17,687 nucleotides of DNA from a virus, in UHGV virus genome UHGV-0277874; one strand, 5' to 3'. Positions 1,301-17,302 of the stretch are shown in pieces. A model generated the notes under the pieces. The model was not told where the DNA came from, searched no databases, and was given only the letters and a program-made list of their open reading frames with translations. The position numbers and the translations under genes are program-made. How positions within the stretch are numbered: the first letter of the stretch is position 1; each line of letters opens with the position of its first letter.

Positions 1301-1630
1301 CTATGCCACGACCTGTTCAAAATCTGCCGTTATGGTTACCCACAGCGCCCCCACGCTTGCCGACCATTTACGACAAACCACCCTGATCGGCCTCCAGTCA
1401 TAAGGTGGCGTCCACTGAAATGCGCGGACGCCACCGTGCCGTTCCAGAAAGGCTTTTAAAGATGGGTGTTCACATTTACGAACACGTATCGTCACGCTGT
1501 AAGTCGACAACTGGTTATTCAGTCCCGCCGCACGACGCTGTTCATAACCATCGCCCAGCTTCACTGTCACCACTTTCGGCTCTGATACCACATTCATATC
1601 CGGGCGCACTTTCCAGTGAAACGTCTCCAT
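1301..1630 (-). CDS. M: Minor tail protein M (lambda gpM-like)
   Basis: 109-aa ORF METFHWKVRPDMNVVSEPKVVTVKLGDGYEQRRAAGLNNQLSTYSVT...WTPPYDWRPIRVVCRKWSASVGALWVTITADFEQVVA, same length and pattern as lambda gpM. Its ATG shares one base with the H stop (TGATG). Confidence 0.95.
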   Translation of the reverse strand: METFHWKVRPDMNVVSEPKVVTVKLGDGYEQRRAAGLNNQLSTYSVTIRVRKCEHPSLKAFLERHGGVRAFQWTPPYDWRPIRVVCRKWSASVGALWVTITADFEQVVA

Positions 1631-4600: not shown

Positions 4601-4686
4601 AGAAGGTTTTTGATACGGGGGATTTCATTTTTAAACTCTGCCGCATCAATCCCCAAATCAATGACCAGGTTGGCTATCTGGTCCAT
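1630..4686 (-). CDS. H: Tail tape measure protein (lambda gpH-like), about 1018 aa from the ATG start
   Basis: Track ORF 1630..4716 starts at a TTG. The in-frame ATG at 4686 is preceded by GGAGG (8-nt spacer) and gives MDQIANLVIDLGIDAAEFKNE..., aligning with the lambda H N-terminus MAEPVGDLVVDLSLDAARF. C-terminus ...NNDGTNGQIGPAALKVVYDLGKKAAADFMQQQARDGGRFSGAYR matches the lambda H C-terminus. Long Q/A/E/R-rich coiled-coil interior; located between G-T and M. Confidence 0.9.
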   Translation of the reverse strand: MDQIANLVIDLGIDAAEFKNEIPRIKNLLNGAASDAERSSARMQRFMERQTQAARQTTQAASSAATAASVHAQTVEKNAQAHERMAREVEKTRQRMEALSQKMREEQAQAMALAEAQDKAAAAFYRQIDSVKQASAGLQELQRIQQQIRQARNSGGIGQQDYLALISEVTAKTRVLTQAEEEATRQKVAFIRQLKEQATRQNLSSSELLRAKAAQLGVSSAAEVYIRKMEQAGKATHSLGLKSAAARQEIGVLIGELARGNLGALRGSGITLANRAGWIDTLMSPKGMMPGGVIGGIAAAVYGLGKAWYDGQKEGEEFNRQLSLTGHYAGVTAGQLWTLSRAISGNGITQHAAAGALAQVVGSGAFRGNDIGMVARAAAQMERSVGQSVSDTINQFKRLKDDPVNAAKALDNELHFLTATQLEQIRVLGDQGRSSDAARIAMSALAEETGRRTADIDNNLNALGSTLKYLSDLWSRFWDAAMNIGREDSLDEQIAALQEKVSRAKRLPWTASSSQVEYDQQRLNDLQEKKRQKDLQDAKEQAERNYQEQQKRRNAENAALNRMNETEAARHQREIARINAMQYADQAVRDAAIQRENERYEKALASGKKKTRETRNDEATRLLLQYSQQQAQVEGQIAAARQSAGIATEKMTEAHKQLLALQQRISDLDGKKLTADEKSVLARKDELIQALTLLDVKQQELQKQTALNELKKKTIQLTSQLAEEERAQRQQHDLDIATVGMGDQQRQRYQVQLSLRQKYQQQLEQLRRDSEQKGTYNTDDYRKAEQALTESLNRQLNENRRYWQQLEIAQGDWKNGVLRALQNVTENADNTAGTVEQLFTSAFSSMSDWLATFCTTGKLNFKSFTSSVLSDMSRIMAQIALMKAVKGIASALPFDFVANADGGVYQSADLSRYSGTVVNRPTFFAFAKGAGVMGEAGPEAILPLRRGADGKLGVVADIGGSGMAMFAPQYNIEINNDGTNGQIGPAALKVVYDLGKKAAADFMQQQARDGGRFSGAYR

Positions 4687-5008
4687 AACGCACACCTCCG
4701 GAAATACCTTCCCCAAGATGCATCAGTTCTTCGTCCGTTCGCTCCGGTATCCCGTTCTCTTCCGGTAAAAGGCTGAAATCAGCCACCGCAGCATCACTGC
4801 TGCCGGACACCATTCTCACGATCAATGCCTTCAGCGAGGCAAACTGCGCATCCATCCACACATCACTGAAGCTCTGCATCCGGAAATAATCGCCCCACTC
4901 ACCAAGCTCAGTGGCCGACATTTCCGACAGCATCCGCCGCCAGTCTGCCCGCCGGAACTCCCGGGCAAGCCGCATGACAAACTGCATTTCCCGCGTCAGG
5001 ACTTTTCC
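4658..5008 (-). CDS. T: T segment of tail assembly chaperone G-T, reached only by a -1 ribosomal frameshift from G (not independently initiated)
   Basis: ORF 4658..4987 (…LAREFRRADWRRMLSEMSATELGEWGDYFRMQ…) resembles lambda gpT. It lies in the -1 frame relative to G, and that frame is open from 5020 through the G stop. Candidate slip site GGAAAAG at 5008-5002 (minus strand), one codon before the G stop. Confidence 0.7.
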   Translation of the reverse strand, partial: GKVLTREMQFVMRLAREFRRADWRRMLSEMSATELGEWGDYFRMQSFSDVWMDAQFASLKALIVRMVSGSSDAAVADFSLLPEENGIPERTDEELMHLGEGISGGVRYGPDSQPGH

Positions 5009-5382
5009 GGCGTCAGCGCCTCATGCTCATCATCCCCGGCATTATCAATGGCCCCCATACCGCTCAGCGACAGAACCATCTCCGCCCCCGCACCCAGGGC
5101 ATCATACGACCATGTTGTAATAACGGATGCGCAAAGCGTCTCTACATCCTTAGACTGATCCGCATTCCACAGTGAGCGGGAAACCAGCCAGGCATTGATA
5201 TCCATCCCCATCCGCAGAAAAGCAATCTGTCGTTCAGCCTCCGGCAGTTCTCCCTCACCGGCATCAAACTTTGCCGTTCGCTGCTGAACAAACGCCAGAT
5301 ATTCAATTCTCTGCAGCCCGGACAGCTCACTGAGCACCACGGACTGTTTTTCATAATTAAACGTGCCCTGTTTCAGAAACAT
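4996..5382 (-). CDS. G: Tail assembly chaperone G (lambda gpG-like)
   Basis: Track ORF 4996..5424. Internal start MFLKQGTFNYEKQSVVLSELSGLQRIEYLA aligns with lambda G MFLK...TLSELSALQRIEHLA; GGAG lies 6 nt upstream of this ATG (the ATG at 5385 is an alternative). Position between V and H, with the T frame overlapping its 3' end. Confidence 0.8.
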   Translation of the reverse strand: MFLKQGTFNYEKQSVVLSELSGLQRIEYLAFVQQRTAKFDAGEGELPEAERQIAFLRMGMDINAWLVSRSLWNADQSKDVETLCASVITTWSYDALGAGAEMVLSLSGMGAIDNAGDDEHEALTPEKS

Positions 5383-5442
5383 CATGTTCTCCACCTGCAA
5401 AAAAGCCCCGGATAACCGGGGCAAATGATGAGTATCGTCCTG

Positions 5443-6186
5443 TTAACCTGCGGCGCTGACAGTCACCGCAGCCACAGCCACAAAATTCCCGTCAGCGGTC
5501 ATGCCCACAATGCTGACACTGCCCTGCTTCACGCCTTTCACCGTGGCTACAAGCCCGTTCAGGGTCACCGTGGCAGTCTGTGGATCTGACGAATGCACAC
5601 TGATCGCTTTGTCACTGGCTCCGTCAGGTTTTACTGTAAAGGTCAGCGTGGTGGTTGCTCCCACTTTTACACTGGCAGATGCCGGTGCCACCGTCAGCCC
5701 GGTAACGCTCACTGTTTCAGTGCCTTCCTCTGCCAGATACGGACGCCCCACACCGCTGATTTTCACAGTGCGGGTCATCACGTCTTTTGAGGCAATGGTT
5801 TTACCCAGTGAACTCAGCCAGCCACGGAAAACATCAACAGTACCGTTGGGATATTTGATACGAAACGCGCAGACTTCACCGGAGTCGAACAACTGAACCA
5901 GTTTTTTCTGCCCGCTGTCACCCGGACGCCAGGCCAGCGTCGCCGAAGTATCACCGACTGATTTCTGCCCCTGGGTTGTCGTTTTCCAGTCTGCATCTTC
6001 ATCATCGAGATAAGTGTCATCTTCTGCATCAGCGGTCATTTCGCCAGGTTGCAGATCCTTCACCATCGCAAGACGCAGCCAGTCAGTGTCCGACAAAGGA
6101 TTCGCAAACGCATCGCCGTTGCCGGTATACATCCAGAACGTCGTCCCCGCACCTTTCGTCTTTGCCAGTGGATTTGGTGTGGTCAT
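5443..6186 (-). CDS. V: Major tail tube protein V (lambda gpV-like) with C-terminal Ig-like (Big_2) domain
   Basis: Start at ATG 6186 preceded by AAGGAGGTGGTA. MTTPNPLAKTKGAGTTFWMYTGNGDAFANPLSDTDWLRLAMVKDLQPGEMTA...YLDDEDADW...FRIKYPNGTVDVFRGW... closely matches lambda gpV. C-terminal segment ...VTGLTVAPASASVKVGATTTLTFTVKPDGASDK... is Ig-like as in lambda V. 247 aa versus 246 in lambda. Confidence 0.9.
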   Translation of the reverse strand: MTTPNPLAKTKGAGTTFWMYTGNGDAFANPLSDTDWLRLAMVKDLQPGEMTADAEDDTYLDDEDADWKTTTQGQKSVGDTSATLAWRPGDSGQKKLVQLFDSGEVCAFRIKYPNGTVDVFRGWLSSLGKTIASKDVMTRTVKISGVGRPYLAEEGTETVSVTGLTVAPASASVKVGATTTLTFTVKPDGASDKAISVHSSDPQTATVTLNGLVATVKGVKQGSVSIVGMTADGNFVAVAAVTVSAAG

Positions 6187-6196
6187 TACCACCTCC

Positions 6197-6598
6197 TTAA
6201 TTCGTGTACGTGATCTGGTACGTGATTTCCGCCATCGCCCAGGTGGCCATCTCATTATCACGTTGATAGTTAAAACCGAGTGGGATCAGGGTGTCGATGA
6301 GTCCGGAAAGTGCCGGTATATCATTCAGGGCAGGAAAAATGGTGCTCTCCATCCACATATCCAGCTCTGAATCCGGTGCCTGTGCCCGGATGAAGACGGC
6401 AATATGCAGAACAGCCTGCCAGTCATCTTCATCCGTCATTTTTCCGGTGTACTGAGCATCACTCAGCCACACCGCCACGGCGGGCAGTTCCTGCGCATCA
6501 ATAAATGCCGGAAGCCCGTCAAAAAACGTGGCGCTGTCTCCACACTGTTCCCGAAGGCGTGCCAGTACGACCTGGCGGATTTGTGTATGTCGGTTCAT
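6197..6598 (-). CDS. U: Tail terminator protein U (lambda gpU-like)
   Basis: From internal ATG (residue 5 of track ORF 6197..6610): MNRHTQIRQVVLARLREQCGDSATFFDGLPAFIDAQELPAVAVWLSDAQYTGKMTDEDDWQAVLHIAVFI...ITYQITYTN aligns with lambda gpU (MKHTELRAAVLDALEKHDTGATFFDGRPAVFDEADFPAVAVYLTGAEYTGE...). ATGA overlap with the Z-frame stop, as in lambda Z/U. Confidence 0.9.
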   Translation of the reverse strand: MNRHTQIRQVVLARLREQCGDSATFFDGLPAFIDAQELPAVAVWLSDAQYTGKMTDEDDWQAVLHIAVFIRAQAPDSELDMWMESTIFPALNDIPALSGLIDTLIPLGFNYQRDNEMATWAMAEITYQITYTN

Positions 6599-6738
6599 CG
6601 GGTCAGCCATAATCTCAGTTGTTGTTTCAGTGCATACCCCAGCTGTTTCGGCATTTCCGCAGCAATGATGCGGTCGCGGGCATCTTCAAATGCCTGTGTC
6701 AGCGGTCCGGACAGCGGGATTTTCACTACCGACGGGCT
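6595..6738 (-). pseudogene. Z: 3'-terminal remnant of a tail completion gene Z homologue (about 45 codons, no start, 5' part missing)
   Basis: Minus-strand frame translates ...SVVKIPLSGPLTQAFEDARDRIIAAEMPKQLGYALKQQLRLWLTR*, matching the lambda gpZ C-terminus (...VVKIPMAVPLTTAFKQNIERIRRERLPKELGYALQHQLRMVIKR). That frame is closed by an in-frame TAA at 6741-6739, and the upstream DNA is the capsid-fusion ORF in another frame. Confidence 0.7.
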
Positions 6739-8297
6739 TTATCCAGCGATGCCACGTCCATTGCAGCGCTCTCCAGTACGTTTGCATGTTTCGCTTTATC
6801 GAACAGACTTACATTATCTGTGGAGATTTTCGGGTTAGACGTCAGAATGGCATAAACCAGATCGGCAATAGTGGATTTCGCCGCACGGCCCAGTTTCATC
6901 GGGACATCGGTCAGCATATTCAGATCATCATTGATAATGGCCTGACGGGTGATACTGAACAGCTCGCCATAGGTCGCCAGTGCAATAGTGGCCTGTTTAT
7001 CTCCGGTGGTGACGTATTTATATTCCGCCCCTTCACGCACCTGACGCAGAGCACTGAAGCCCCCCATACCCACACGATGGGCAATTTTAAAATCAGACAA
7101 CTGACCTTTCCGCGTCCACTGTTCATAGGTTTCAGGGGCATCTTCCCAGCCCTGCAGAATGGCTTTGTTTGCAACATCCAGCAGAATATTACCGAAGTCA
7201 GACGTACTGTGTGTGAACGCCGCACCGACCATCTGCATCGGGTTATAACTGGAAACCCCAATACCCCGTTCAGTCAGTGACATACGGGCATATTCACGCA
7301 GGGTCATCCCGTTGTAGACATTATCACGTTCGGTTTTTTCAAATCCGGCACGCGCCATCAGCGCCTGGCGGATCCCGTCCCCCACAAAATTACCGTTACC
7401 GGCATAAATATGAGCCGGGGTATTTTTATTGGATGGCGTGGACTCGCGCCCCATCTCGTTCAACAGCTTTTCGCGGGCCTGCTCCAGCGAACATTCAGGA
7501 TCGGCAAGACACTGAGCCTGCAGCGTCTGATAACGCCCGCCAAACATGGCAAACAGATCATTAATACCGTTTACACGCGCTTTTTGCTCTGCCAGTACCT
7601 GCGCACGGATACTGTTTTCATCCACCACGGGTGCTGCTGCCTGCACTGGCGTCCGGGAGGCTGCAGGTTCATCATCCTGTACGCGTGGAGCACTGTTGCG
7701 TGGCGGAGTAATCATGTTTCGAATGGATTCCGGCATCTTTTTAAATTCCTCTGTACGTTTTGACTGAATACATGCCATTGCCTTAACGGCTGGCGTCACC
7801 TGATCAGCAAATCCATGTGCCAGACATTCGGCACCGGACATCCAGGTCTCATCCGCCAGCATGGCAGCAATTTCATCGGTGGTTTTCCCGGTTTTCTGTG
7901 CATAAGCGGGTAACAGAACCGCCTCAACCTTATCGAGCAGGTCGGCATAGGTGCGCATGTCCTCCGCATCACCGCCCGTAAAGCCAAATGGTTTATGAAT
8001 CATCATGAAGGTGTTTTCCGGCATAATGACCGGGTTTCCCACCATCGCAATGACCGACGCCATTGACGCCGCCACACCGTCGACATAAACGGTAATGGAT
8101 GCACCATGTGTTTTCAGCGCATTAAAAATGGCGATGCCTTCAAAGACATCGCCACCCGGTGAATTGATATGGAGATTAATGTGGGTGATATCGCCCAGTG
8201 CATTCAGATCACTGATAAACTGCTTCGCTGTAACACCCCAGAAACCAATCTCGTCATAAATATAAATATCCGCGTCACTCTGGTGACCAGCCTGCAT
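6726..8297 (-). CDS. ClpP-family prohead protease fused to scaffold-like and major-capsid-like sequence (Gifsy-2-type multi-part head gene); probably 3'-truncated
   Basis: Track ORF 6726..8558 begins at a TTG inside the portal gene. The first ATG after the portal stop (8297) gives MQAGHQSDADIYIYDEIGFWGVTAKQFISDL...INSPGGDVFEGIAIFNALK...MASVIAMVG..., a ClpP/S14-like protease domain. This is followed by a helical linker and a segment (…TYGELFSITRQAIINDDLNMLTDVPMKLGRAAKSTIADL…) that I judge to be HK97-fold capsid-like. The ORF stops (TAG 6728-6726) exactly at the junction with the Z remnant. Confidence 0.65.
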   Translation of the reverse strand: MQAGHQSDADIYIYDEIGFWGVTAKQFISDLNALGDITHINLHINSPGGDVFEGIAIFNALKTHGASITVYVDGVAASMASVIAMVGNPVIMPENTFMMIHKPFGFTGGDAEDMRTYADLLDKVEAVLLPAYAQKTGKTTDEIAAMLADETWMSGAECLAHGFADQVTPAVKAMACIQSKRTEEFKKMPESIRNMITPPRNSAPRVQDDEPAASRTPVQAAAPVVDENSIRAQVLAEQKARVNGINDLFAMFGGRYQTLQAQCLADPECSLEQAREKLLNEMGRESTPSNKNTPAHIYAGNGNFVGDGIRQALMARAGFEKTERDNVYNGMTLREYARMSLTERGIGVSSYNPMQMVGAAFTHSTSDFGNILLDVANKAILQGWEDAPETYEQWTRKGQLSDFKIAHRVGMGGFSALRQVREGAEYKYVTTGDKQATIALATYGELFSITRQAIINDDLNMLTDVPMKLGRAAKSTIADLVYAILTSNPKISTDNVSLFDKAKHANVLESAAMDVASLDKARR

Positions 8298-8310
8298 CCT
8301 GAACCAGGAA

Positions 8311-9819
8311 TTATTCTTCGGACTGGTCGTCGGTGTGCTGCGGCTCCTGTCGTTTCGTTGCGGCACTGCTGCCTCCTTTATCACTGGCCGGATCGGTATC
8401 AAATACCAGATCCAGCTTGCGGTTTTCATCAATTTCGGCCTTGCGCCGACGTTTGACATCATCCGGATTACGACCACCAGCACGTACCCAGTCTGATTCT
8501 GTCGCCGCTCCACCACGAATCTGGATTTTCCAGGCCTCAGCCTCCTTAACAGGGTCAATCCACGGCATCACTGGTCCGGAATACACCGCGGTATACAGTG
8601 AAGAACGGTCAAGATCACGGGGTAGCCTGATAACACCGGATGCCACAGCCTGTTTCAGCCAGGCACGATACATCGGGCGGGTGACGGCACCAATAAACCA
8701 GTCCTGCAGGATCAGGTAGCCATCAGTAGACTCAACCAGTTCCTGACGCTGGGCGCTGTAAGTGCCGTTATAGTTGCGTGCCGTACTGGAAAAACTCAGA
8801 CGACTGCCCGCCGCCACGGCACGCAACTGACCATTACGAAAAGTTTCAAGGTTAGGATTGGGACGATCCGACTTCACCATTCCGATTTCTTCGCCGGGTT
8901 TCAGATCGTCGTAAATAATGCCTGGCTGAATGGTAAGCTCGCGTTCCTTATCCTTGCTGCCATTACCATCCGGTTCATAGCTCTGCCCGTCGCCTTTCCG
9001 GATGTACATCCCCAGAGCAGCGGCGATCCTTGCTGCAGTCAGCTCAGAATCTTCATACTCTTTCAGGGCACTGAGGCGGATCAGCACACCGGACAACAAA
9101 GACGTCCCGCGCATCTGGTGCAGACGGCGAACAAATTTAAGATGCAGCATTCGCTCTGCATCCACTTCTTTGGTTTCCATCTGCCGTCCGGATACAGGAC
9201 GACTTTTATACACCAGATATTTTTCGGGACGCCCCCAGTCATCAACAAACACGCCCTGATTCAGCCTGTTGCTCTCATCACTGGTCATGGGAATAAAGTC
9301 TGGCTCGAGCGCCTCCAGCCAGAAATGAACACCGGCAGAAGGCGTCAGGCTGTTTATGCGCCCGGAAACCATCTGGGCAAACACCTCACCATCGCGCAGC
9401 CAGGTACGCAGCATCAGACGTTCCAGCATCGGACGGGTAAACTGCCCGGTGACTTCCGGGCTGACAGACCATTCACTCCATCGGGTGCGTATCTCCGCTG
9501 CCAGATCACGGGCAATGGCCCCATTGCGTAATACCGGATGTGGCTCGACAATAATCCCGTTTTTCCCCACCACCCGTTCTTCCAGCTTGTCAAATACACC
9601 AATAACCAGATCGTGGTTGTTATCAAGGTAACGGGCCTGCTCACGTAACGACACGGCCCCGTACTGGCTTAACTGGTCGGCAGTTCGGTTTTCCCGCCGG
9701 GCTTTGTGTGTCCGCGTCGTTTTTACGGCCTCATAAGCCTGGATCACCGCACGGGAACGCAGCCTTGCCGCTTTCCATCCTGGTGAAAAAACGCCAATCA
9801 CATCATCAAGAATTGCCAT
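8311..9819 (-). CDS. Portal protein
   Basis: Track ORF 8311..9891 starts at a GTG. The in-frame ATG at 9819 (MAILDDVIGVFSPGWKAARLRSRAVIQAYEAVK...) overlaps the gpW stop as TGATG. About 502 aa; sits between gpW and the prohead protease as in lambda (W-B-C); acidic C-terminus ...QHTDDQSEE. Confidence 0.8.
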   Translation of the reverse strand: MAILDDVIGVFSPGWKAARLRSRAVIQAYEAVKTTRTHKARRENRTADQLSQYGAVSLREQARYLDNNHDLVIGVFDKLEERVVGKNGIIVEPHPVLRNGAIARDLAAEIRTRWSEWSVSPEVTGQFTRPMLERLMLRTWLRDGEVFAQMVSGRINSLTPSAGVHFWLEALEPDFIPMTSDESNRLNQGVFVDDWGRPEKYLVYKSRPVSGRQMETKEVDAERMLHLKFVRRLHQMRGTSLLSGVLIRLSALKEYEDSELTAARIAAALGMYIRKGDGQSYEPDGNGSKDKERELTIQPGIIYDDLKPGEEIGMVKSDRPNPNLETFRNGQLRAVAAGSRLSFSSTARNYNGTYSAQRQELVESTDGYLILQDWFIGAVTRPMYRAWLKQAVASGVIRLPRDLDRSSLYTAVYSGPVMPWIDPVKEAEAWKIQIRGGAATESDWVRAGGRNPDDVKRRRKAEIDENRKLDLVFDTDPASDKGGSSAATKRQEPQHTDDQSEE

Positions 9820-10037
9820 CAGAACCTCGCCAGCCGGTACCCGGGATGCCCCCGTCGTCGTGTAATCAGAGCCGCAAGGCGGCGCTCCCACTCCTGCCGT
9901 CCCTGCCGGATCTCAGATAAGTTTTCCATGGTCATCTGCTGACCATTAAAGGTGACGGATTTTCCGTCCAGCACCGCCATTTCAGCTTCCGTATAACGCT
10001 GAATCATGGCTTCGATATCATTCTGGTTCATAACCAT
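9819..10037 (-). CDS. W: Head-tail joining / DNA stabilisation protein (lambda gpW-like)
   Basis: About 70 aa; C-terminal ...RRLAALITRRRGHPGYRLARF resembles lambda gpW ...QTGMTQRRRGPAGFYV. Lies between terminase large subunit and portal, exactly as W in lambda. Start is ATG 10037 or ATG 10031 (the latter overlaps the terminase stop as ATGA). Confidence 0.7.
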   Translation of the reverse strand: MVMNQNDIEAMIQRYTEAEMAVLDGKSVTFNGQQMTMENLSEIRQGRQEWERRLAALITRRRGHPGYRLARF

Positions 10038-12127
10038 CCTCCGGAAGTCAGCCAGGGGTTAACATCGTCAGTTACTGTTTTCTTCCGTTTTTGTTTTTTA
10101 ACAGGCGTGGATACCGGTTCCGGTGAGGGTGACGGTTCGGTACTGTCCGGGACACACTCCAGCCAGGTTTCCCGGCTCGCCCATTCCGGTGCATCCGGCC
10201 AGCGGATCTTTTCGTATCCATGCAGAATGACCAGAGCCTCGGCATACACCATCAGGTCAAAGGCTTCGTTGGCACCGCGACCCGGCTTACTCCATTTCCC
10301 GTCACTGCTCCGCTCTTCATACGTCAGTTCGTCGTAAAACCAGCTCCCCAGCCAGTCAGGGAAATGCACATAGCCGGGACCTGGCGAGTCACGCCATAAC
10401 GCGTTATTCACCCGGTCTTTCAGTGCATCCGTCTGAAGAAGCCAGAGCGGCACATCACCTGCGGCCTGCGCCCGTCGGCCCGTTCGTCCGGTGTTATCAG
10501 GGAATGTACGGGTGATCAGTTTTGCGCGCCGGATGCTGTCGCCCTTAAACAGGTAAATACGTTTACCAAGGCCATCACGACGGCAACGACGCCAGAATTT
10601 ATAGGCATTATCAGTGACCCCGTCTTCACCGCCGGAGTCCACCGCCATTGCCATCAGTCGCATTTGTTGAGAAGGATCGGAGGCCAGCGGCCAGCTTTTA
10701 TGAAAAACATCCGTCAGCAGGACATCCCAGTCTTCCGGATAGCTGGCCGGATCAATTCGCTGGCTCTCCCCGTCGCAGTCACTGCGCAATGACTGCATGA
10801 TATTGTAACGATCAATAATCCAGCGTTCGCCACGACTGCCATAGCCCGTTACCTGAACCACAAAACGGCGATGACGTCCCGCCTGCACATCCACTGTCGC
10901 CACAAGGAAATTAACGCCATCCGGCACACTGCGGGAAGGAACTGGCTCTGCCCGCTGCTCAAGCAGTTCACTTTTTCGTTGCTCCATGCTGGCACGAGGA
11001 AGATAAGGCAATCCCCAGTCGGTGTTGATAACCGCCCTGAGTGTTTCTTCGCTTCCTGTCGCTTCATACTCCTGTTCTGCAGTCAGTAATTTGTAAACCA
11101 GTTGCGCCCAGGTCTGATACGCAGCAGCTGGCCCTTCCATCCAGAAACTGGCGATACGGGAGCGGCGCGGTTCACCGGAAACGTTGCCGTTACGATCAAT
11201 GACCTGACCTTCACGCAACCAGACTCCTGCACTATTGAGCTCACGCTTTTTCTCCGCAGTGATAATGCCGCTGCAGTGCGGGCAAAGTAGATACGCCGCC
11301 TCACTGGCTTTAAAGGGATCCGGTTCATTACGGTAGCCGGTCATGGCATCCATAGCTGGCTGAAAATATTCACCGCAGTGCGGACATGGCCAGTACCAGC
11401 GGCGGCGGTCACCACGATTGTAAAGGGAAAGAATACCAGTCGTCGGTGGCGCTTCATGAGGCGACTTACGTCGCCATTTGCTATCGCAGATGTCACGTCC
11501 CGGCGAGCTCTCCACCAGAGTCATCCCGGCGGACATAAATGTGGTGGTACGTTTTGAGGCCAGGGAGAAACCATCACCCTCGCTGTCGATATTCTCCGGA
11601 AAACGGTCGTAATCGGTTAAGGCGACAAACCGGTAATCCGACGACGACATAATGTTGACCGAGGGCCAACCAATTTTAAGGAACGAGCCATCCCTGAACG
11701 TCTTATAATGGACATTATTGTCGTTACGACGTGGACTCATTCTTTTCTTTACCGCAGCACTGCTTCTGAACGTTCTGTCGAGGCGCTTTTTAGAATGCTC
11801 GCGGGCCTTATCTTCGGTCATCTGCACAACGAGCATGTCCGAAGGATCGCAAACGATGGTATAGACAATCCATCCATCGATCAGACCAATGGTCTTCCCT
11901 GTTCGCGCAGGACCAACAAAAATCACCGCATCGTATTCACGCGATGCCAGGCAGTTCATGGGCTCAATGATGTAGGGTGTCAGTTCAGGATCCCATGGCA
12001 CCGAGTTACCAGCCCCCTTGGGAACACGCATGAATTTTTTAACAGCCTCCGAAATCGGCATGCGACGTGGTGGGGAAAATCCTGCCGATATGTCCCTTCC
12101 CAAATTTCGGGCTGATGAAAAACCCAT
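10028..12127 (-). CDS. Terminase large subunit (GpA-type ATPase/nuclease)
   Basis: 699-aa ORF with ATG 12127 preceded by AGGAGG. Walker A-like motif VGPARTGKT near the N-terminus; size and position immediately downstream of the small subunit; diverged from lambda gpA in sequence. Confidence 0.9.
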   Translation of the reverse strand: MGFSSARNLGRDISAGFSPPRRMPISEAVKKFMRVPKGAGNSVPWDPELTPYIIEPMNCLASREYDAVIFVGPARTGKTIGLIDGWIVYTIVCDPSDMLVVQMTEDKAREHSKKRLDRTFRSSAAVKKRMSPRRNDNNVHYKTFRDGSFLKIGWPSVNIMSSSDYRFVALTDYDRFPENIDSEGDGFSLASKRTTTFMSAGMTLVESSPGRDICDSKWRRKSPHEAPPTTGILSLYNRGDRRRWYWPCPHCGEYFQPAMDAMTGYRNEPDPFKASEAAYLLCPHCSGIITAEKKRELNSAGVWLREGQVIDRNGNVSGEPRRSRIASFWMEGPAAAYQTWAQLVYKLLTAEQEYEATGSEETLRAVINTDWGLPYLPRASMEQRKSELLEQRAEPVPSRSVPDGVNFLVATVDVQAGRHRRFVVQVTGYGSRGERWIIDRYNIMQSLRSDCDGESQRIDPASYPEDWDVLLTDVFHKSWPLASDPSQQMRLMAMAVDSGGEDGVTDNAYKFWRRCRRDGLGKRIYLFKGDSIRRAKLITRTFPDNTGRTGRRAQAAGDVPLWLLQTDALKDRVNNALWRDSPGPGYVHFPDWLGSWFYDELTYEERSSDGKWSKPGRGANEAFDLMVYAEALVILHGYEKIRWPDAPEWASRETWLECVPDSTEPSPSPEPVSTPVKKQKRKKTVTDDVNPWLTSGGWL

Positions 12128-12135
12128 TATTCCTC

Positions 12136-12663
12136 CTAGAGACTCTCTCCTTCCTCATCAGGAATTAATTCAGCAGCACAAGCCTCGTAGGATTTTTCCT
12201 GAAGAGTGTATCGCAGGTCATCAATGGCCTGTTGTACAACGCCGACGGCCTGAGGAGTCAGGGCGCAATCGCGTTCAAGAACATCCGGAATTGTCTCCAG
12301 AACCTGGACGACAGCCTTTCTCATGGACGAATAGACGATGACTACTTCATCAACTGGGATGAGTTTTCGCTGCTCCTTTTCCAGCTTGATCCTTTCATTT
12401 TCAGACTGGTACCAGTCCTTTCTCTCTTTCGGCTCCATACGGGATGGATCATGAACAGAGTCTGCTGCCTCATGCTTCACACTAAACAGGGCGGGCCCGA
12501 CATGCTGCAGGGCGTAAACGGGGTTCCCCCTGACAGTCGCAGCCACAGGAGTGTTGGCCGCGAGGAGCCGTTTTTTTACTGTGTCCCGGTGAAGCCCAAA
12601 GGCCTCGGCGATTTTAAAAACACTCCAGTAATAAGCATCACCGATCCCGCTCACATTTGACAT
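12136..12663 (-). CDS. Terminase small subunit (Nu1-like, N-terminal winged HTH)
   Basis: Track ORF 12136..12675. The ATG at 12663 has GGAG 6 nt upstream. MSNVSGIGDAYYWSVFKIAEAFGLHRDTVKKRLLAANTPVAATVRGNPVYAL (HTH) followed by ...ERKDWYQSENERIKLEKEQRKL, comparable to lambda Nu1 ...IKWYAERDAEIENEKLRREVEEL. Lies immediately upstream of the large subunit, about 185 bp from the candidate cosN. Confidence 0.85.
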   Translation of the reverse strand: MSNVSGIGDAYYWSVFKIAEAFGLHRDTVKKRLLAANTPVAATVRGNPVYALQHVGPALFSVKHEAADSVHDPSRMEPKERKDWYQSENERIKLEKEQRKLIPVDEVVIVYSSMRKAVVQVLETIPDVLERDCALTPQAVGVVQQAIDDLRYTLQEKSYEACAAELIPDEEGESL

Positions 12664-12835
12664 AAGCAACTCCATCTGGCAGGTGAAAATCAGGTTTATT
12701 TATATATTTCAATTAATTGCAAACTGGTCTAATGACAGGAAGAAAAAAATATTGTACAGGTAAAAAGAGAAATAACTTTTAATTATCAATAAATTACCAA
12801 ACATGCTGCCGCCGCCATGGAAATGCAAAAACTAG

Positions 12836-12870
12836 CCTTTTTCCGCGACGCTCCCGCCCCGTGGCAGGGG
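12836..12870 (-). other. Candidate cohesive-end site (cosN-like)
   Basis: Minus-strand sequence ...GCCACG GGGCGGGAGCGT CGCGG AAAAAGG... resembles lambda cosN GTTACG GGGCGGCGACCT CGCGGG TTTTCGC (ACGGGGCGG and CGCGG identical), about 185 bp upstream of the terminase small subunit start, the same spacing as lambda cosN to Nu1. Putative 12-nt cohesive end GGGCGGGAGCGT = plus 12848-12859. It is a GC-rich island in an AT-rich intergenic region. Confidence 0.4.
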
Positions 12871-12888
12871 CCCCCACCGGGAGGACCC

Positions 12889-12912
12889 GACAGCCTGACA
12901 GCCTGACAGCCG
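12889..12912. repeat. Three tandem 8-bp direct repeats GACAGCCT / GACAGCCT / GACAGCCG next to the cosN-like sequence
   Basis: Read directly: ...cccGACAGCCTGACAGCCTGACAGCCGtgac...; function unknown. Confidence 0.6.
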
Positions 12913-13047
12913 TGACGAGCATCTGATACAGCGCTTTACATAATGGCATAGGAATAATTCAGAAGGACATCACAGCATGCCCACACAAATTAGTGTGAGT
13001 GTCCTGTTTCTTCCTACGCACAGGACTGACGAGCATGAGGGGAAAAT

Positions 13048-13215
13048 ATGCGAACCATAAATGCCTCATCTTCAGCAATGCAGCCGGCATCCGAACAGGA
13101 CGATATTGTAAATTCACCTAATTACGAGGACATTGCAGTAGTTGAATTGCAGCTCTGTATTAGCCTGACAGTGACAGAATGCGATATTGACTCTGTCACA
13201 GGTGAAATAGTTTGA
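13048..13215 (+). CDS. Hypothetical small protein (55 aa), speculative
   Basis: ATG at 13048 preceded by GAGGGG (6-7 nt spacer); translation MRTINASSSAMQPASEQDDIVNSPNYEDIAVVELQLCISLTVTECDIDSVTGEIV. Below the track size cut-off; no homology recognised. Confidence 0.3.
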   Translation: MRTINASSSAMQPASEQDDIVNSPNYEDIAVVELQLCISLTVTECDIDSVTGEIV

Positions 13216-13235
13216 ATGATTAGCAGTTATGGTGC

Positions 13236-13442
13236 TCAGTCAACCACCAGGGAATAATCCTTCGAATTCTTATCGTGCTTCACCAACGCTGCCTCAATTG
13301 CCCTGAATGCTTCCAGAGACACCTGATGTTCTATACATGCAATTACAACATCCGGGTAACTCATAGAAATGGTGCTATTAAGCATATTTTTTACACGAAT
13401 CAGATCCAACGAGAGTTCATCAGCAGATTGTTCTTTATTCAT
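13236..13442 (-). CDS. Hypothetical small protein (68 aa), moron-region gene of unknown function
   Basis: [71 protein letters not shown] with ATG start at 13442; AT-rich codon usage like neighbouring cargo genes; divergent from ydfO-like gene. No confident family assignment. Confidence 0.55.
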
Positions 13443-13742
13443 TTTGTCGCTCCATGCGTTTGCTCGTCATCTAGCGGTTAAAATATTACTTCAAATCTTA
13501 CTGCATAAAAGAGGAAAAGTATGAAAGTTTGAGTACATCGACCTTACATACATCTGTCGGTTGCATATCCCTCCTGGATGCCAGCAAGGCTCAATTTTGT
13601 TACGCAATCAACACTATTCATTAAAAACAGGCTTAATATTTGACATAAATCATCAACAAAACACAAAGAGGTCAGACCAGATTGAAACAATAAACACGAT
13701 AATGCAAACTACGCGCCATCGTATCACATGGAAGGTTTACCA

Positions 13743-14174
13743 ATGGCTCAGGCTGCCATTTTTAAAGAAATATTCGATCAAGTACGTAAAGATTTAAACT
13801 GTGAATTATTTTATTCTGAGCTAAAACGTCACAATATCTCACTTTATATTTACTATTTAGCCACAGATAATATTCACATTGTGTTAGAAAACGACAACAT
13901 AGTGTTAGTAAAAGGACTCAAAAAGGTTGTAAATGTTAAATTCTCCAGAAACAAACATCTTATAGAGACCTCCTATAATAAGTTGAAATCAAAAGAAATC
14001 ACATTTCAACAATACAGGGAAAATCTTGCTAAAGCAGGAGTTTTCCGATGGGTTACAAATATCCAGGAACACCAAAGATATTACTATGCCTTTGATAACT
14101 CATTACTATTTACTGAAAGCATCCAGAAAATTACTGAAAGCATCCAGAAAACTACACAGATCTTACCACGCTAA
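13743..14174 (+). CDS. ydfO: YdfO/YbcV-family protein (DUF-type, prophage cargo gene)
   Basis: Track ORF 13728..14174. The ATG at 13743 has GGAAGG about 10 nt upstream. [52 protein letters not shown]...[37 protein letters not shown]... matches my recollection of K-12 Qin YdfO; gene order ydfO-gnsB-cspI as in Qin. Confidence 0.8.
14110..14151 (+). repeat. Perfect 21-bp tandem duplication (ttactgaaagcatccagaaaa x2) inside the 3' end of the ydfO-like gene
   Basis: Read directly; in frame, giving [14 protein letters not shown] in the protein. Confidence 0.9.
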
Positions 14175-14277
14175 ACCATAACGTCCGGCTTCTCTCACTC
14201 CTGAGCCGGACTGCATTGGTTTAATAAAAACCATCAACAATTGTGATTTAGATATTCGGAACCATTCAAATATAACA

Positions 14278-14299
14278 AAACCCCGTAAAAACGAGGTTT
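14278..14299. terminator. Candidate bidirectional rho-independent terminator between convergent ydfO-like and gnsB-like genes
   Basis: Inverted repeat aaaccccg-taaaaa-cgaggttt (8-bp stem with one G-U pair on the minus-strand RNA, 6-nt loop) followed by a U-rich tract on the minus strand; 27 nt downstream of the gnsB-like stop. Confidence 0.4.
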
Positions 14300-14325
14300 A
14301 TGGATAAATTTTATTATTGAATACA

Positions 14326-14499
14326 TCAGATTAAATTAATCTTGACATCATAGCTTTCAAGACCCGTCATTTTTTCCCGTGCGGTAAACTGAATACTGGT
14401 AACTTCTTTCCCGGTCTTTTTCTTAAGTTCAATAATTTTTTTTGTTATATATTCAGAAATATCTGCTTCTGCTTTTGTTTTTAAGTCTTCAATATTCAT
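14326..14499 (-). CDS. gnsB: GnsA/GnsB-family small protein (57 aa)
   Basis: Not in the track (under 60 aa). ATG at 14499 with GAGGA upstream; translation MNIEDLKTKAEADISEYITKKIIELKKKTGKEVTSIQFTAREKMTGLESYDVKINLI, with the conserved FTAREKMTGLESYDVKI block of the Gns family as recalled; TGA stop at 14328-14326. Confidence 0.9.
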   Translation of the reverse strand: MNIEDLKTKAEADISEYITKKIIELKKKTGKEVTSIQFTAREKMTGLESYDVKINLI

Positions 14500-14670
14500 C
14501 ATTTCCTCTTTTAGTCTGTTATGACTTTCCAGTTACACAGTAAGTCGATTATATGGTGCAAACGTGTAAAAGATAAGATGAAACATCGCAATAATCAACA
14601 TACGATAGTCTAAATTTTACACAAACAGACAAAGAGAATTTTCCTGAATTATCAATGCAATAGCATCAAA

Positions 14671-14901
14671 TCAACTCAAGAGCCTTATTGCTGCTTCCAG
14701 AATTTCTTCTGAAGTAACATGTCGATCCGCGGCTACATAAATGACTTTATGATCTCCGGTCAGAGATGGAAACCCTGCGGCCATTACAGTAAGGTGTGTT
14801 TTTTCGCCATTTGGATATTCACGCATGATGGTGTTAACTCCAGTCATCGCTGGCACTACCACTGCTGGTTCAGAGTTAAAAAAAACTATGATTTTTTTCA
14901 T
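14671..14901 (-). CDS. Hypothetical protein (about 76 aa from the MKK start; 90 aa if from ATG 14943)
   Basis: ORF ...MKKIIVFFNSEPAVVVPAMTGVNTIMREYPNGEKTHLTVMAAGFPSLTGDHKVIYVAADRHVTSEEILEAAIRLLS; globular-looking composition unlike the overlapping plus-strand ORF 14719..14985 (W/H/C-rich, judged spurious). Between gnsB-like and cspI-like genes; no family recognised. Confidence 0.5.
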   Translation of the reverse strand: MKKIIVFFNSEPAVVVPAMTGVNTIMREYPNGEKTHLTVMAAGFPSLTGDHKVIYVAADRHVTSEEILEAAIRLLS

Positions 14902-14945
14902 GATGTTACCGTAGTATGTGAGTATCCATCGAATAGACACCAAGC

Positions 14946-14982
14946 AAAAAAGCTCCCGAAGGAGCCTTCATTTTCACTTTTT
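14946..14982. terminator. Possible weak bidirectional terminator hairpin
   Basis: caaaaaa-GCTCC-cgaa-GGAGC-cttcattttcactttttt: 5-bp GC stem with tetraloop, flanked by an A-tract upstream and T-tract downstream; about 200 nt downstream of the cspI-like stop on the minus strand. Confidence 0.3.
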
Positions 14983-15172
14983 TAAATCCAACGACAGACG
15001 GCTGGCATTTAAGTATTGTGAAATATTATCAAATGTAATCATCATTGATTTACAAAAGATACATTTTGCCCCGAAAGGATTCATGTCAGAAACATCAAAA
15101 GATGATGTTCTATACTGGGAACCATGACAACACGGGCATCTAAAGTGAATATGGTTTGTAATATTGTCTACC

Positions 15173-15385
15173 TCAAAGCGCCACTACATGAACAGCGGCA
15201 GGACCTTTAGGTCCGTTCTCAATACCAAATTCAACTTCCTGATTCTCAGTTAATGTTTTGAAATCGTTGCTCTGAATTGCTGAGAAATGGACAAACACAT
15301 CTTTGCTGCCATCTTTCGGCGTGATGAAACCAAAACCTTTTTCAGGGTTAAACCATTTCACTAAACCAGTCATTTTGTTAGACAT
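15173..15385 (-). CDS. cspI: Cold-shock protein, CspA family (CspI-like)
   Basis: 70-aa [73 protein letters not shown] with RNP1-like KGFGFI and RNP2-like VFVHF motifs; matches my recollection of the Qin prophage CspI. About 360 bp of AT-rich upstream sequence is consistent with the long 5' leader typical of csp genes. Confidence 0.95.
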
Positions 15386-15746
15386 AATTATTACCTTTTG
15401 AAGAAATTAGCCCTTGGGCAGAATGGTCCGAAAAAAATATCAGAGAGAAAAACCAACAAGGAAATCTCAAGAGGTACAAATAATAAAATTATAACAATGA
15501 CTGCTTCAGATAAATTTGTAACAAACCAGAACACCATTAACGCATGATTAACCACCCATAGCAAGGATTACTTTTGTAAAGAAAAACACAGCAATGAAAG
15601 AATAGCTTTATTTATTAATAAAACGTGTCATTCTGATTAAGACCTTTTATCTTACCCTTAAGATTTCAGGAATTTTGGCTCATGGAAGAGTCCTTTTTAT
15701 TCAAATTTTACATTCCGCGATGTAAATGTTCCGATTTAATATTACC

Positions 15747-16770
<1,024 letters not shown>

Positions 16771-16774
<4 letters not shown>

Positions 16775-17082
16775 AGATATTTATGATGAGGACGCTCGTG
16801 CTTATTGGCAGGATTTTCAATCTTAAAGGAGTACTGATGCTGCAGATAAGACTCAACTTTTTCTGACAATTTTTCTGCTACTTCCAGGAAGACTTGCCGG
16901 ACGCTCCTTCTGGCTGCTGCCTCATAAAACTCCAGCGCAGCTCCTTCAACACGGTCCATGGCGACATCCAGGTCAAAAATTTCACCGTCAAAGCGTTCTT
17001 TGTCCTGTAAGGCTACAGTTACCGCAACTTTATTCTCAAAATTACGGACTCCTTTCACAACCAGTTCATAGTCTTGAGTCAT
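16771..17082 (-). CDS. ydfR: YdfR-like small protein of unknown function, located inside the lysis cassette
   Basis: 103-aa ORF MTQDYELVVKGVRNFENKVAVTVALQDKERFDGEIFDLDVAMDRVEGAALEFYEAAARRSVRQVFLEVAEK...; AGGAG upstream of the ATG; stop overlaps the endolysin ATG (ATGA). Position between holin and endolysin matches K-12 Qin essQ-ydfR-rrrQ as recalled. Confidence 0.7.
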
Positions 17083-17086
17083 TGGA

Positions 17087-17302
17087 TTACTCTCCTCTCG
17101 CAGCCTTACGCCTGTCTTCTTTAATCTTGAAATAAAGATTTGTCAGATACGTCAGCAGGCCAAAAACCAGGCTACCCAGCACACCGATTGCAGCCCACTG
17201 TGACGGAGTTACTTTATCGAGTAACTGCAATGCCCAGAAACCAGCATTACCAGCCGATGTGCCATAGGCGATACCTGTTGTTAACTTATCCATTGATTTC
17301 AT
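17087..17302 (-). CDS. S: Class II holin / pinholin (phage 21 S21-like) with dual-start motif
   Basis: 71-aa [74 protein letters not shown], near-identical in pattern to S21 ([23 protein letters not shown]...[13 protein letters not shown]...[20 protein letters not shown]). Two transmembrane segments. Met1-Lys-Ser-Met4 gives the antiholin (71 aa) / holin (68 aa) dual start. Confidence 0.9.

What the first reader, a model, noticed from the sequence alone, without database searches (positions are those of the whole stretch)
12676..12870. Candidate cos region with a variant cosN and cosB-like elements upstream of the terminase small subunit
A GC-rich island (minus strand GCCACG-GGGCGGGAGCGT-CGCGG) resembles lambda cosN but differs at 4-5 positions of the 12-nt cohesive end, and sits at the lambda-like distance (about 185 bp) from the Nu1-like start. 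The intervening AT-rich DNA carries three same-orientation copies of CAGG(T/A)(G/A)AAAA (12679-12690, 12735-12746, 12756-12767) and an IHF-consensus-like TATCAATAAATTA (12784-12796), reminiscent of lambda cosB R sites plus I1. A terminase of non-lambda type recognising a lambda-like but altered cosN would define a distinct packaging specificity.
Basis: partly seen in the sequence, partly recalled or inferred. Interest (0 to 1): 0.55.

Follow-up and report, generated by a model that had tools for sequence, protein, structure and literature searches.

The report
Lambda-like cos site of Tritos-type prophage
This is the DNA-packaging (cos) site of a well-known type of E. coli lambdoid prophage; two deposited phage genomes begin exactly at the predicted cut, so the finding is correct but ordinary.

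Summary
On the minus strand the window carries cosQ (GGGTCCT, 12888..12882), then cosN with the 12-nt cohesive end GGGCGGGAGCGT (12859..12848), then an AT-rich cosB running to the small-terminase start.

The GenBank/ENA records of phage cdtI and of the plaque-forming phage Tritos are 98.8-98.9% identical to the window. Both begin at exactly 12859 and end at ...CTGCCACG.

The cohesive end differs from lambda's at bp 7, 8, 9 and 11. All four lie in the right half, which the Feiss laboratory has shown to vary naturally and not to set specificity. It differs from Gifsy-1's end by 1 nt.

The large terminase is a lambda gpA-family enzyme. The small terminase is DUF1441, not Nu1 by sequence, but its predicted N-terminus is the same winged-HTH fold class.

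The same cos layout recurs upstream of DUF1441 terS genes in about 30 bacterial lineages. Cyanophage Cr-LKS3, in the same family, has experimentally determined ends.

The perfect IHF consensus is conserved at cos bp 62-64 in 10 lineages.

Any distinct packaging specificity should lie in cosB and TerS, not in cosN.

Verdict: already known kind, low interest.

The parts
12882..12888 (-). cosQ-like heptamer GGGTCCT (packaging-termination element in lambda), 22 nt upstream of the top-strand nick
   Evidence: It is the only GGGTCCT in the window. Lambda has the same heptamer 23 nt before its nick. It is conserved as (G/A)GGT(C/A)CTCC in relatives and invariant in 63 E. coli variants. Its function is inferred from lambda.
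12846..12861 (-). cosN: CG|GGGCGGGAGCGT|CG, the nicking site of the large terminase. The predicted nicks fall between 12860/12859 on the minus strand and between 12848/12847 on the plus strand.
   Evidence: The pattern is unique in the window. The CG dinucleotides flanking both nicks are conserved as in lambda. 8 of 16 bp are twofold symmetric, against 10 of 16 in lambda.
12848..12859 (-). Predicted 12-nt 5' cohesive end, GGGCGGGAGCGT
   Evidence: Phage Tritos OV696610.1 (linear record) and phage cdtI AB285204.1 start with exactly these 12 nt and end with ...CTGCCACG. The end differs from lambda's at bp 7, 8, 9 and 11, and from Gifsy-1's GGGCGGCAGCGT at bp 7 only.
12816..12847 (-). Conserved cosN-proximal block CGCGGAAAAAGGCTAGTTTTTGCATTTCCATG (cos bp 13-44). 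It is shared even with phages that carry a different TerS clade.
   Evidence: It contains many invariant columns in the cross-genus alignment. It is recognisable from E. coli to Halomonas, Marinobacter and cyanophage Cr-LKS3. Its role (TerL contacts, bending or spacing) is inferred, not tested.
12797..12815 (-). Candidate R3-equivalent box GCGGCGGCAGCATGTTTGG (cos bp 45-63). It belongs to the family-wide 'CAnCAnCA' box, seen as TGTCAGCAGCAGGTG in other genera.
   Evidence: It is conserved in position in nearly all DUF1441-terS loci. It occupies the interval of lambda R3 (bp 50-65) and N15 R3 (bp 48-60) (PMC9026076). TerS binding here is inferred.
12784..12796 (+). IHF consensus TATCAATAAATTA (cos bp 64-76), the I1-equivalent
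   Evidence: It is a perfect WATCAANNNNTTR and the only one in the window; P = 0.024 in cosB shuffles. A consensus site sits at cos bp 62-64 in the same orientation in 10 lineages, including Proteus, Providencia, Xenorhabdus, Scandinavium and mEp460.
12753..12766 (-). Most E. coli relatives have TTTTCACCTGTACA.
   Evidence: It aligns with (C/G)AGGTGACA of other genera. There it forms a 12-22-nt inverted repeat with element B. The window carries a minor allele, T, at 12762.
12720..12739 (-). Element B, CCTGTCATTAGACCAGTTTG.
   Evidence: It is conserved as CTGTCAT(C/T)(T/A)GACCAG in Yersinia, Rahnella and Scandinavium, and as TGTCACCTCAAT in Proteus and Providencia.
12676..12697 (-).
   Evidence: TTTCACCTG(A/C)CAG is the best-conserved cosB element across genera. 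Its position relative to terS resembles that of lambda R1. Its GGCAG/GTCAG core changes together with the R3-equivalent box between the two TerS recognition-helix variants.
12136..12663 (-). terS, small terminase of the DUF1441 family (175 aa from the probable true start at 12663; the ORF listing starts it at 12675)
   Evidence: Matches PF07278 at 1.7e-44 and PHROG 141 'terminase small subunit' at 7.9e-65. Homologs start MSN..., and a GGAG Shine-Dalgarno sequence lies at 12670-12673. The model has pLDDT 84 with an N-terminal winged HTH.
10028..12127 (-). terL, large terminase of the lambda gpA family (ATPase plus endonuclease)
   Evidence: Matches PF05876 at 6e-81 and PF20454 at 2e-86. It is 24% identical to lambda gpA, E = 9e-23.

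Best explanation
The region is the cohesive-end (cos) site of a lambdoid prophage of the cdtI/Tritos type, read on the minus strand.

Proposed mechanism:
- Initiation: dimers of the DUF1441 small terminase bind cosB through an N-terminal winged HTH. The most likely sites are the bp 45-63 box and the CCTG-containing elements A, B and C.
- Bending: IHF bends the DNA at the consensus site at bp 64-76.
- Cutting: this complex positions the gpA-type large terminase on cosN. TerL nicks the two strands 12 bp apart, between the conserved CG dinucleotides, giving a 5' overhang GGGCGGGAGCGT.
- Direction: packaging proceeds toward terS and the head and tail genes.
- Termination: packaging ends at the next cos, which needs cosN plus the upstream cosQ heptamer.

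What is shown and what is inferred:
- Shown here: the sequence elements, their conservation, the protein families, and the coincidence with deposited genome ends.
- Inferred from lambda biology: the nicking chemistry, the role of IHF, the role of cosQ, and which cosB elements bind TerS.
For: 1. Phage Tritos (linear record; virions seen and a plaque-former, PMC9928086) and phage cdtI start exactly at window 12859 and end at ...CCACG. The whole-window alignment stops at 12859.

2. cosQ, the CG-flanked 12-nt frame and CGCGG all match lambda. My frame reproduces two published facts: 10 of 16 symmetric bp in lambda, and Gifsy-1 differing from lambda at bp 8, 9 and 11.

3. TerL is gpA family. TerS is DUF1441 / PHROG 141 terminase small subunit, with a winged-HTH N-terminus.

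4. The same cos layout sits upstream of DUF1441 terS genes in about 30 lineages.
- Phage LLS is annotated with a 5' cohesive site GGGCGGCGCGCT in the same frame.
- The Hafnia phage yong2 record starts immediately after the 12 nt.

5. The IHF consensus is unique in the window and conserved at the same position in 10 lineages.

6. The region from cosQ to terS is more than 90% conserved in 63 distinct E. coli prophage versions, while the DNA left of cosQ is mosaic.
Against: No virion-end data exist for this exact sequence in what I could read. Asakura 2007 (cdtI) is not held, and the Tritos paper does not say how the record start was chosen. Both depositors may therefore have placed the start by analogy with lambda.

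The LLS ends are also inferred rather than measured.

In the window itself the R-like repeats are weak. The repeat finder reports no direct-repeat family, although it recovers R3, R2 and R1 in lambda.

The spacing between the conserved frames varies in some relatives: 9 nt in Cr-LKS3, 11 in VT1-Sakai and 14 in Gifsy-2. Overhang length is therefore not fixed across the family.

The fold matches for the TerS N-terminus have weak E-values (0.15-1), although probabilities are high.
Confidence: 0.9

Rival explanations
1. It is a cos site, but the cut positions or overhang length differ from the lambda-style 12-nt prediction (for example 9-14 nt, or nicks shifted by a base or two).
For: Related DUF1441-TerS phages have other spacings between the conserved CCACG and CGCGG frames. 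Cr-LKS3 has a measured 9-nt overhang. VT1-Sakai shows 11 nt and Gifsy-2 14 nt. The mEp460_4F5 record starts 5 nt upstream, at CCACG.
Against: In the window the frame is exactly CG + 12 + CG, as in lambda, Gifsy-1 and LLS. Two independent records start at the predicted base.
Confidence: 0.06
2. The AT-rich 165 bp is mainly an expression or regulatory leader for terS (ribosome-binding site, possible promoter or UP-like DNA). On this reading the CCTG repeats and the IHF match are not terminase-recognition elements, and cosB would be limited to the first 50 bp or so after cosN, as in N15.
For: Element C lies directly against the Shine-Dalgarno sequence, and in other genera the last copy overlaps it (GAGGTGTCAATG). 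The window's own repeats are too weak for the repeat finder. Marine relatives have short cosB regions with no IHF consensus. N15 works with a single R3 (PMC4669245).
Against: No sigma-70-like promoter or terminator is found at 12676-12870. The IHF consensus is positionally conserved in 10 lineages while the flanks diverge. Elements A and B form 12-22-nt perfect inverted repeats in Proteus and Providencia. The GGCAG/GTCAG core changes in step in two separate elements between the two TerS recognition-helix variants.
Confidence: 0.15
3. It is a relic cos in a defective prophage: the sequence is cos-like but is no longer used for packaging in this host.
For: Only 17.7 kb of the prophage is visible. 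The window carries minor alleles at 12762 and 12740, inside elements A and B.
Against: terS and terL are intact ORFs. The cos region differs from that of the plaque-forming phage Tritos by one base in 200. A relic would in any case still be a cos site in kind.
Confidence: 0.08
4. Headful (pac) packaging, with the cos resemblance being coincidental.
For: None found.
Against: TerL has the gpA ATPase and nuclease domains. TerL sequence type correlates with the kind of DNA ends made during packaging, and lambda's TerL group makes 5' cohesive ends (Casjens work as cited in PMC12315714). The cosQ-cosN-CGCGG frame is conserved in about 30 lineages. Cr-LKS3 in the same family has determined cohesive ends.
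Confidence: 0.01

Closest known systems
Phage cdtI (AB285204 / NC_009514) and phage Tritos (OV696610, E. coli LF82 prophage 3)
   Same: They are 98.8-98.9% identical to window 1-12859. TerS is 100% identical. Their cos regions are 97.5% and 99.5% identical to the window's. Both records begin at GGGCGGGAGCGT, which is window 12859.
   Different: One to a few point differences in cosB, for example C instead of T at 12762. The DNA left of cosQ is unrelated in cdtI. I could not confirm that their ends were measured.
Bacteriophage lambda cos (cosQ-cosN-cosB with R3, I1, R2, R1)
   Same: - The cosQ heptamer is identical.
- The CG-flanked 12-nt stagger is the same, and the left half GGGCGG is identical.
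- CGCGG follows the nick in both.
- An IHF site lies after the R3 position.
- terS starts about 190 bp from the nick.
- TerL is gpA family in both.
   Different: - The cohesive end differs at bp 7, 8, 9 and 11.
- No CGTTTCC-type R sequences are present.
- TerS is DUF1441, with no significant sequence similarity to Nu1 (E = 4.6).
- TerL is only 24% identical.
- cosQ lies 22 rather than 23 nt from the nick.
Salmonella phage Gifsy-1 cos
   Same: Its cohesive end GGGCGGCAGCGT is 11 of 12 identical to the window's, with the same cosQ and CG flanks. It is cited by Feiss as a lambda-like cohesive end.
   Different: Gifsy-1 has a Nu1/phage-21-type TerS and a lambda/21-type head module. Its cosB is lambda-like rather than the DUF1441 type.
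cos of DUF1441-TerS lambdoid phages LLS and mEp213 (also mEp460, PhiR40_1, VT1-Sakai) and cyanophage Cr-LKS3
   Same: Same TerS superfamily (37-42% identity) and the same cosQ-CCACG|N12|CGCGGRAAACGGCTAGTTTT-CAnCAnCA layout. The LLS cohesive end is annotated or inferred in this frame. The Cr-LKS3 ends were determined experimentally. PhiR40_1 has the identical 12-nt end.
   Different: - They carry a different TerS clade, with recognition helix HRQTV against HRDTV here.
- Their cosB repeat is different: ATGTCGAA/TTCGACAT inverted repeats.
- Their right-half cohesive-end sequences differ.
- Cr-LKS3 has a 9-nt overhang.

Membership tests
[quoted passage not shown] | A 12-bp staggered cosN with identity to lambda, especially in the left half | tested here: met
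   GGGCGGGAGCGT against GGGCGGCGACCT is 8 of 12 identical, with bp 1-6 identical. All differences fall in the naturally variable bp 7-12.
Lambda-like cos site | Conserved 5'-CG-3' dinucleotides flanking both nick positions | tested here: met
   The sequence is CG|GGGCGGGAGCGT|CG at 12861..12846. The same flanks occur in lambda, Gifsy-1, LLS and most relatives.
Lambda-like cos site | cosQ heptamer GGGTCCT about 20 bp upstream of cosN | tested here: met
   It lies at 12888..12882, is unique in the window, and is 22 nt from the nick against 23 in lambda.
Lambda-like cos site | Physical 5'-protruding single-stranded ends on virion DNA | not testable with these tools
   The evidence is indirect. 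The Tritos and cdtI records start at the predicted base. Family member Cr-LKS3 has measured ends.
Lambda-like cos site | cosB with an IHF site (I1) between the R3 position and the distal R sites | tested here: met
   A perfect IHF consensus lies at cos bp 64-76. It is conserved at bp 62-64 in 10 lineages. Binding was not tested.
Lambda-like cos site | Repeated TerS-binding R sequences in cosB (three 16-bp repeats in lambda) | tested here: inconclusive
   The repeat finder finds no repeat family in the window but recovers lambda's R sites. There are short CCTG-core elements with a strand bias of P = 1.5e-4. Relatives have clear 12-22-nt inverted repeats at the aligned positions.
Lambda terminase (gpA large subunit) | GpA ATPase domain plus GpA endonuclease domain | tested here: met
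   PF05876 scores 272 bits and PF20454 scores 290 bits, both far above their cut-offs. BLASTP to lambda gpA gives E = 9e-23.
Lambda Nu1-type small terminase | Sequence membership in the Nu1 family | tested here: not met
   The only Pfam hit is DUF1441, PF07278. BLASTP to Nu1 gives E = 4.6. The protein therefore works like Nu1 but is not a sequence-family member.
Lambda Nu1-type small terminase | N-terminal MerR-like winged helix-turn-helix DNA-binding domain followed by helical oligomerisation and TerL-binding regions | tested here: met
Headful (pac) packaging system | A pac-type TerL and no conserved staggered-nick site | tested here: not met
   TerL is gpA type, and a conserved cosN frame is present.

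The most novel reading that the evidence does not exclude
The DUF1441 small terminases define a packaging-specificity group that has not been characterised experimentally in anything I could find. It would be distinct from the lambda, 21 and N15 specificities. Its cosB grammar appears to be conserved from E. coli to marine gammaproteobacteria and a cyanophage:
- a CGCGGRAAACGGCTAGTTTT block;
- a CAnCAnCA box at the R3 position;
- a fixed IHF site at bp 62-64 in enteric lineages;
- CACCTG/TGTCA-type elements that change together with the recognition helix.

The window's HRDTV-helix subtype would be one specificity within that group.
Probability: 0.55. Interest if true: 0.3.

Novelty: already known. 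Interest (0 to 1): 0.15.

Why it matters
Little is at stake. The analysis confirms where this common E. coli prophage type cuts its DNA, which is useful for orienting and annotating prophages and for interpreting transduction or Chi-orientation analyses.

It also shows that a sequence-only reader can place a cos site to the base.

The modest open point is that cosB recognition by DUF1441-type small terminases has not been dissected in anything I could find. These terminases are very widespread: part or all of this 601-bp cos/terS stretch matches in 2127 of 5426 complete E. coli genomes, and 651 genomes carry at least 80% of it. The family includes Stx- and Cdt-converting phages. The conserved elements mapped here give concrete targets for that work.

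Tried and rejected
- Literature search for the cohesive-end string and its complement. It returned only unrelated eukaryotic and G-quadruplex papers.
- Attempts to read Asakura 2007 (cdtI) and Vahanian 2017 (cosN natural history). Neither is held, so I could not check whether this exact cosN was listed or whether the cdtI ends were measured.
- The Tritos paper. It gives no cos or termini analysis for Tritos.
- The repeat finder on the window's cos. No direct-repeat family was found, so I relied on cross-genus alignment instead.
- Sequence search of TerS against the PDB, both as a single sequence and as a profile. Nothing significant was found.
- The idea that Gifsy-1 shares the DUF1441 TerS. 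Rejected: Gifsy-1 has a Nu1/21-type TerS, and it is Gifsy-2 that has the DUF1441 type.
- A promoter or terminator reading of the AT-rich region. No sites were found in 12676-12870.
- An Rfam scan of 12400-15900. Nothing was found in the cos region.
- PhiR40_1 as a clean terS-only swap. Rejected: the 5' part of its terL is also diverged, at about 74%.

Full report
**Context**

The window is part of a lambdoid prophage with its late genes on the minus strand. In order these are lysis genes (17302..15747), a moron region, the region in question, terS (12663..12136), terL (12127..10028), a W-like gene, a lambda-family portal, a ClpP-protease/capsid fusion, and tail genes.

Window 1-12859 is 98.9% identical to phage Tritos and 98.8% identical to phage cdtI. 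Tritos is prophage 3 of E. coli LF82. It makes virions and was isolated once as a plaque-former (PMC9928086).

**Observation**

Read on the minus strand, the sequence is:

...GGGTCCTcccggtgggggcccctgccaCG|GGGCGGGAGCGT|CGcggaaaaaggctagtttttgcatttccatggcggcggcagcatgtttggTAATTTATTGATAatt...

This runs on to terS.

- The cosN pattern is unique in the window, against 0.09 expected.
- The IHF consensus is perfect and also unique in the window.
- GGGTCCT is unique in the window.
- The 12-nt end differs from lambda's at bp 7, 8, 9 and 11.
The middle one has a mismatch.
- CAGG is strongly strand-biased in cosB, at 4 against 0, P = 1.5e-4.
- cosB is 31.5% G+C, against 50% for the window and 77% for the cosQ-cosN island.

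**The decisive evidence**

Megablast against phage records shows that Tritos (OV696610.1, linear) and cdtI (AB285204.1) align to the window starting at their own base 1. That base is window 12859, the first G of GGGCGGGAGCGT. Their last bases are ...CTGCCACG, the sequence just before it.

The predicted left end therefore matches the deposited genome ends to the base. I could not establish whether those ends were measured or set by analogy with lambda. The Tritos paper gives no termini analysis and the cdtI paper is not held.

**Comparison with lambda and the published natural history of cosN**

Lambda reads ...GGGTCCTttccggtgatccgacaggttaCG|GGGCGGCGACCT|CGcgggttttcgc.... Shared features are:

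- the cosQ heptamer, 22 against 23 nt from the nick;
- the CG dinucleotides flanking both nicks;
- the left half GGGCGG;
- CGCGG after the nick;
- the distance to terS, with the start codon at bp 197 (or 185 for the upstream ATG) against 191 in lambda.

Feiss et al. 2015 (PMC4669245) state several relevant points.

- Differences at bp 7-12 are common among lambda-like phages: N15 at 9 and 12, Gifsy-1 at 8, 9 and 11.
- cosQ and the CG flanks are conserved.
- Lambda TerL is insensitive to right-half changes.
- Lambda and N15 terminases show no cosN specificity.
- Packaging specificity resides in TerS and cosB.

As a control on my frame, I read Gifsy-1's cos directly. It is GGGCGGCAGCGT, which differs from lambda at exactly 8, 9 and 11 and from the window at bp 7 only. 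My symmetry count also reproduces the published 10 of 16 for lambda. The window has 8 of 16.

Gifsy-1 has a genuine Nu1/21-type TerS. This cohesive-end variant is therefore not tied to the terminase type. A dedicated survey of cosN variation exists (Vahanian et al. 2017, Virology 509:140, cited), but I could not read it.

**The terminase**

TerL carries both gpA domains and aligns with lambda gpA along its length at 24% identity, E = 9e-23. It is a lambda-type enzyme.

TerS is DUF1441 (PF07278) and PHROG 141 'terminase small subunit'. It has no significant sequence similarity to Nu1.

An AlphaFold model built from 34 homologs has pLDDT 84. It shows an N-terminal helix-turn-helix with a beta-hairpin wing at residues 7-60, followed by long helices.

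- Foldseek matches this domain to RacA, BldC, TnrA/GlnR, MerR-family regulators, excisionases and 7lwr_A, an entry on viral DNA-packaging motor assembly. Probabilities are 0.85-0.99 but E-values are weak.

From my own knowledge, this is the fold class reported for the gpNu1 DNA-binding domain. TerS therefore works like Nu1 but is not a sequence-family member.

**Relatives**

The TerS protein was used to fetch 38 loci from different species and 80 IMG/VR contigs.

Nearly all of the diverse loci show the same layout:

1. a cosQ-like element (GGGTCCTCC, AGGTACTCC or GGGGACCCT);
2. about 22 nt;
3. CCACG | about 12 variable nt | CGCGG(A/G)AAACGGCTAGTTTT;
4. ATTTYCATG;
5. a 'CAnCAnCA' box at bp 45-60.

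The lineages include Scandinavium, Yersinia, Providencia, Proteus, Rahnella, Xenorhabdus, Rouxiella, Pasteurella, Halomonas, Marinobacter and others. The 12-nt sequence itself varies widely, and the window's version is one of many.

Three members anchor the frame.

- Cyanophage Cr-LKS3 (38% identical TerS) has experimentally determined 5' cohesive ends, GGGCTCGCG, followed by CGCGGAAGTCGGCAGTTTTT (PMC9303873).
- Phage LLS is annotated with a 5' cohesive site GGGCGGCGCGCT. Its authors inferred this with input from Feiss, and it is the same as the putative mEp213 cos.
- The Hafnia phage yong2 record starts right after the 12 nt.

Within E. coli, 63 distinct versions of the region are more than 90% conserved from cosQ to terS but mosaic to the left of cosQ.

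**cosB**

The IHF consensus (YAANNNNTTGATW on the gene strand) recurs at cos bp 62-64, in the same orientation, in 10 lineages whose flanking sequences differ. This supports a functional I1-equivalent.

The box at bp 45-63 occupies the interval of lambda R3 (bp 50-65) and N15 R3 (bp 48-60) (PMC9026076).

- Element A, at 12753-12766.
- Element B, at 12720-12739.
- Element C, at 12676-12689. This is the best-conserved one, TTTCACCTG(A/C)CAG.

In Proteus, Providencia and Xenorhabdus, A and B form perfect 12-22-nt inverted repeats (ATTGAGGTGACA / TGTCACCTCAAT), and a third copy precedes the start codon. In the window the copies are degenerate, and the repeat finder reports none although it recovers lambda's R3, R2 and R1.

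There is suggestive co-variation.

- Lineages with recognition helix NRGTV have GTCAG in both the bp 45-60 box and element C.
- The HRDTV lineages (window, Scandinavium) have GGCAG in both.
- A second TerS clade (HRQTV; mEp460, LLS, PhiR40_1, Gifsy-2) uses ATGTCGAA/TTCGACAT repeats instead.

These are few independent events, so this is a lead and not proof.

PhiR40_1 shares cosQ, the identical cosN and the first 35 bp or so with the window. It then diverges through cosB, terS and the 5' part of terL. This is consistent with cosB, terS and the 5' end of terL moving as one specificity module, separate from cosN.

**Rivals**

- A promoter or leader reading of the AT-rich DNA finds no support from consensus scans, but it cannot be fully excluded for the elements next to the ribosome-binding site.
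- An overhang of another length is possible in principle, because relatives vary at 9, 11 and 14 nt. The window, however, has the exact CG + 12 + CG frame.
- Headful packaging is contradicted by the gpA-type TerL and by the conserved nick frame.

**Verdict**

The inference that the altered cosN and a 'non-lambda' terminase define a new specificity is not supported as stated. Any distinct specificity would lie in the DUF1441 TerS and its cosB.

The site belongs to a known class. It is identical to the start of two deposited phage genomes, and its kind of variation is already described. Interest is low. The only modest novelty is the conserved cosB grammar of DUF1441-type terminases, for which I found no experimental study.

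Noticed in passing
window 12889-12916: An 8-bp tandem repeat, GACAGCCT x3.4 (AGGCTGTC on the gene strand), lies immediately to the left of cosQ. This is the least conserved stretch among 63 E. coli variants, apparently through copy-number differences. It marks the mosaic boundary at the right genome end.
   Followed up: partly
window 12661-12675: The terS start is probably the second ATG (12663), not the first (12675). Homologs begin MSN..., GGAG lies 6 nt upstream at 12670-12673, and the Tritos annotation uses it while the cdtI annotation uses the first.
   Followed up: yes
window 15146-15530 (-): A full-length cspA thermoregulator RNA (RF01766, 114 bits, E = 1e-29) lies upstream of a cspI-like cold-shock moron. 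It sits in the stretch between the lysis genes and cos, which carries the csp, ynfN, gnsB, ybcV and ybcW morons.
   Followed up: no
L009 (PhiR40_1) 1500-3000 against window 12900-11358: PhiR40_1 and relatives share cosQ, the identical 12-nt cohesive end and about 35 bp after the nick with the window. They then switch to a different cosB, a 42%-identical TerS and a terL 5' region that is about 74% identical. The rest of the structural genes are about 95% identical. This looks like a natural swap of the cosB-terS-5'terL module.
   Followed up: partly
L130 (Gifsy-2), L011 (VT1-Sakai), L133 (Cr-LKS3): The number of bases between the conserved ...ACG and CGCGG frames is not always 12. It is 14 in Gifsy-2, 11 in VT1-Sakai and 9 in Cr-LKS3, where it was measured. 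Overhang length may therefore vary within DUF1441-TerS phages.
   Followed up: no
L012 (JAGZPX010000007.1): A contig binned as a Veillonella parvula MAG carries a terS 99% identical to this E. coli-type gene, with the same cosQ and cosN at the same positions. This is very likely a mis-binned E. coli prophage contig.
   Followed up: no
window 12797-12815 and 12676-12689; L013, L016-L024: There is a concerted difference between TerS recognition-helix variants. GTCAG (NRGTV helix) against GGCAG (HRDTV helix) appears in both the bp 45-63 box and element C. This may be protein-DNA co-variation, but it rests on very few independent events.
   Followed up: partly
window 12740 and 12762: The window carries minority alleles, T at both positions where about 90% of relatives have C. 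Both lie inside or next to elements A and B. The majority form of A, TTTTCACCTG, is identical to the core of element C.
   Followed up: no
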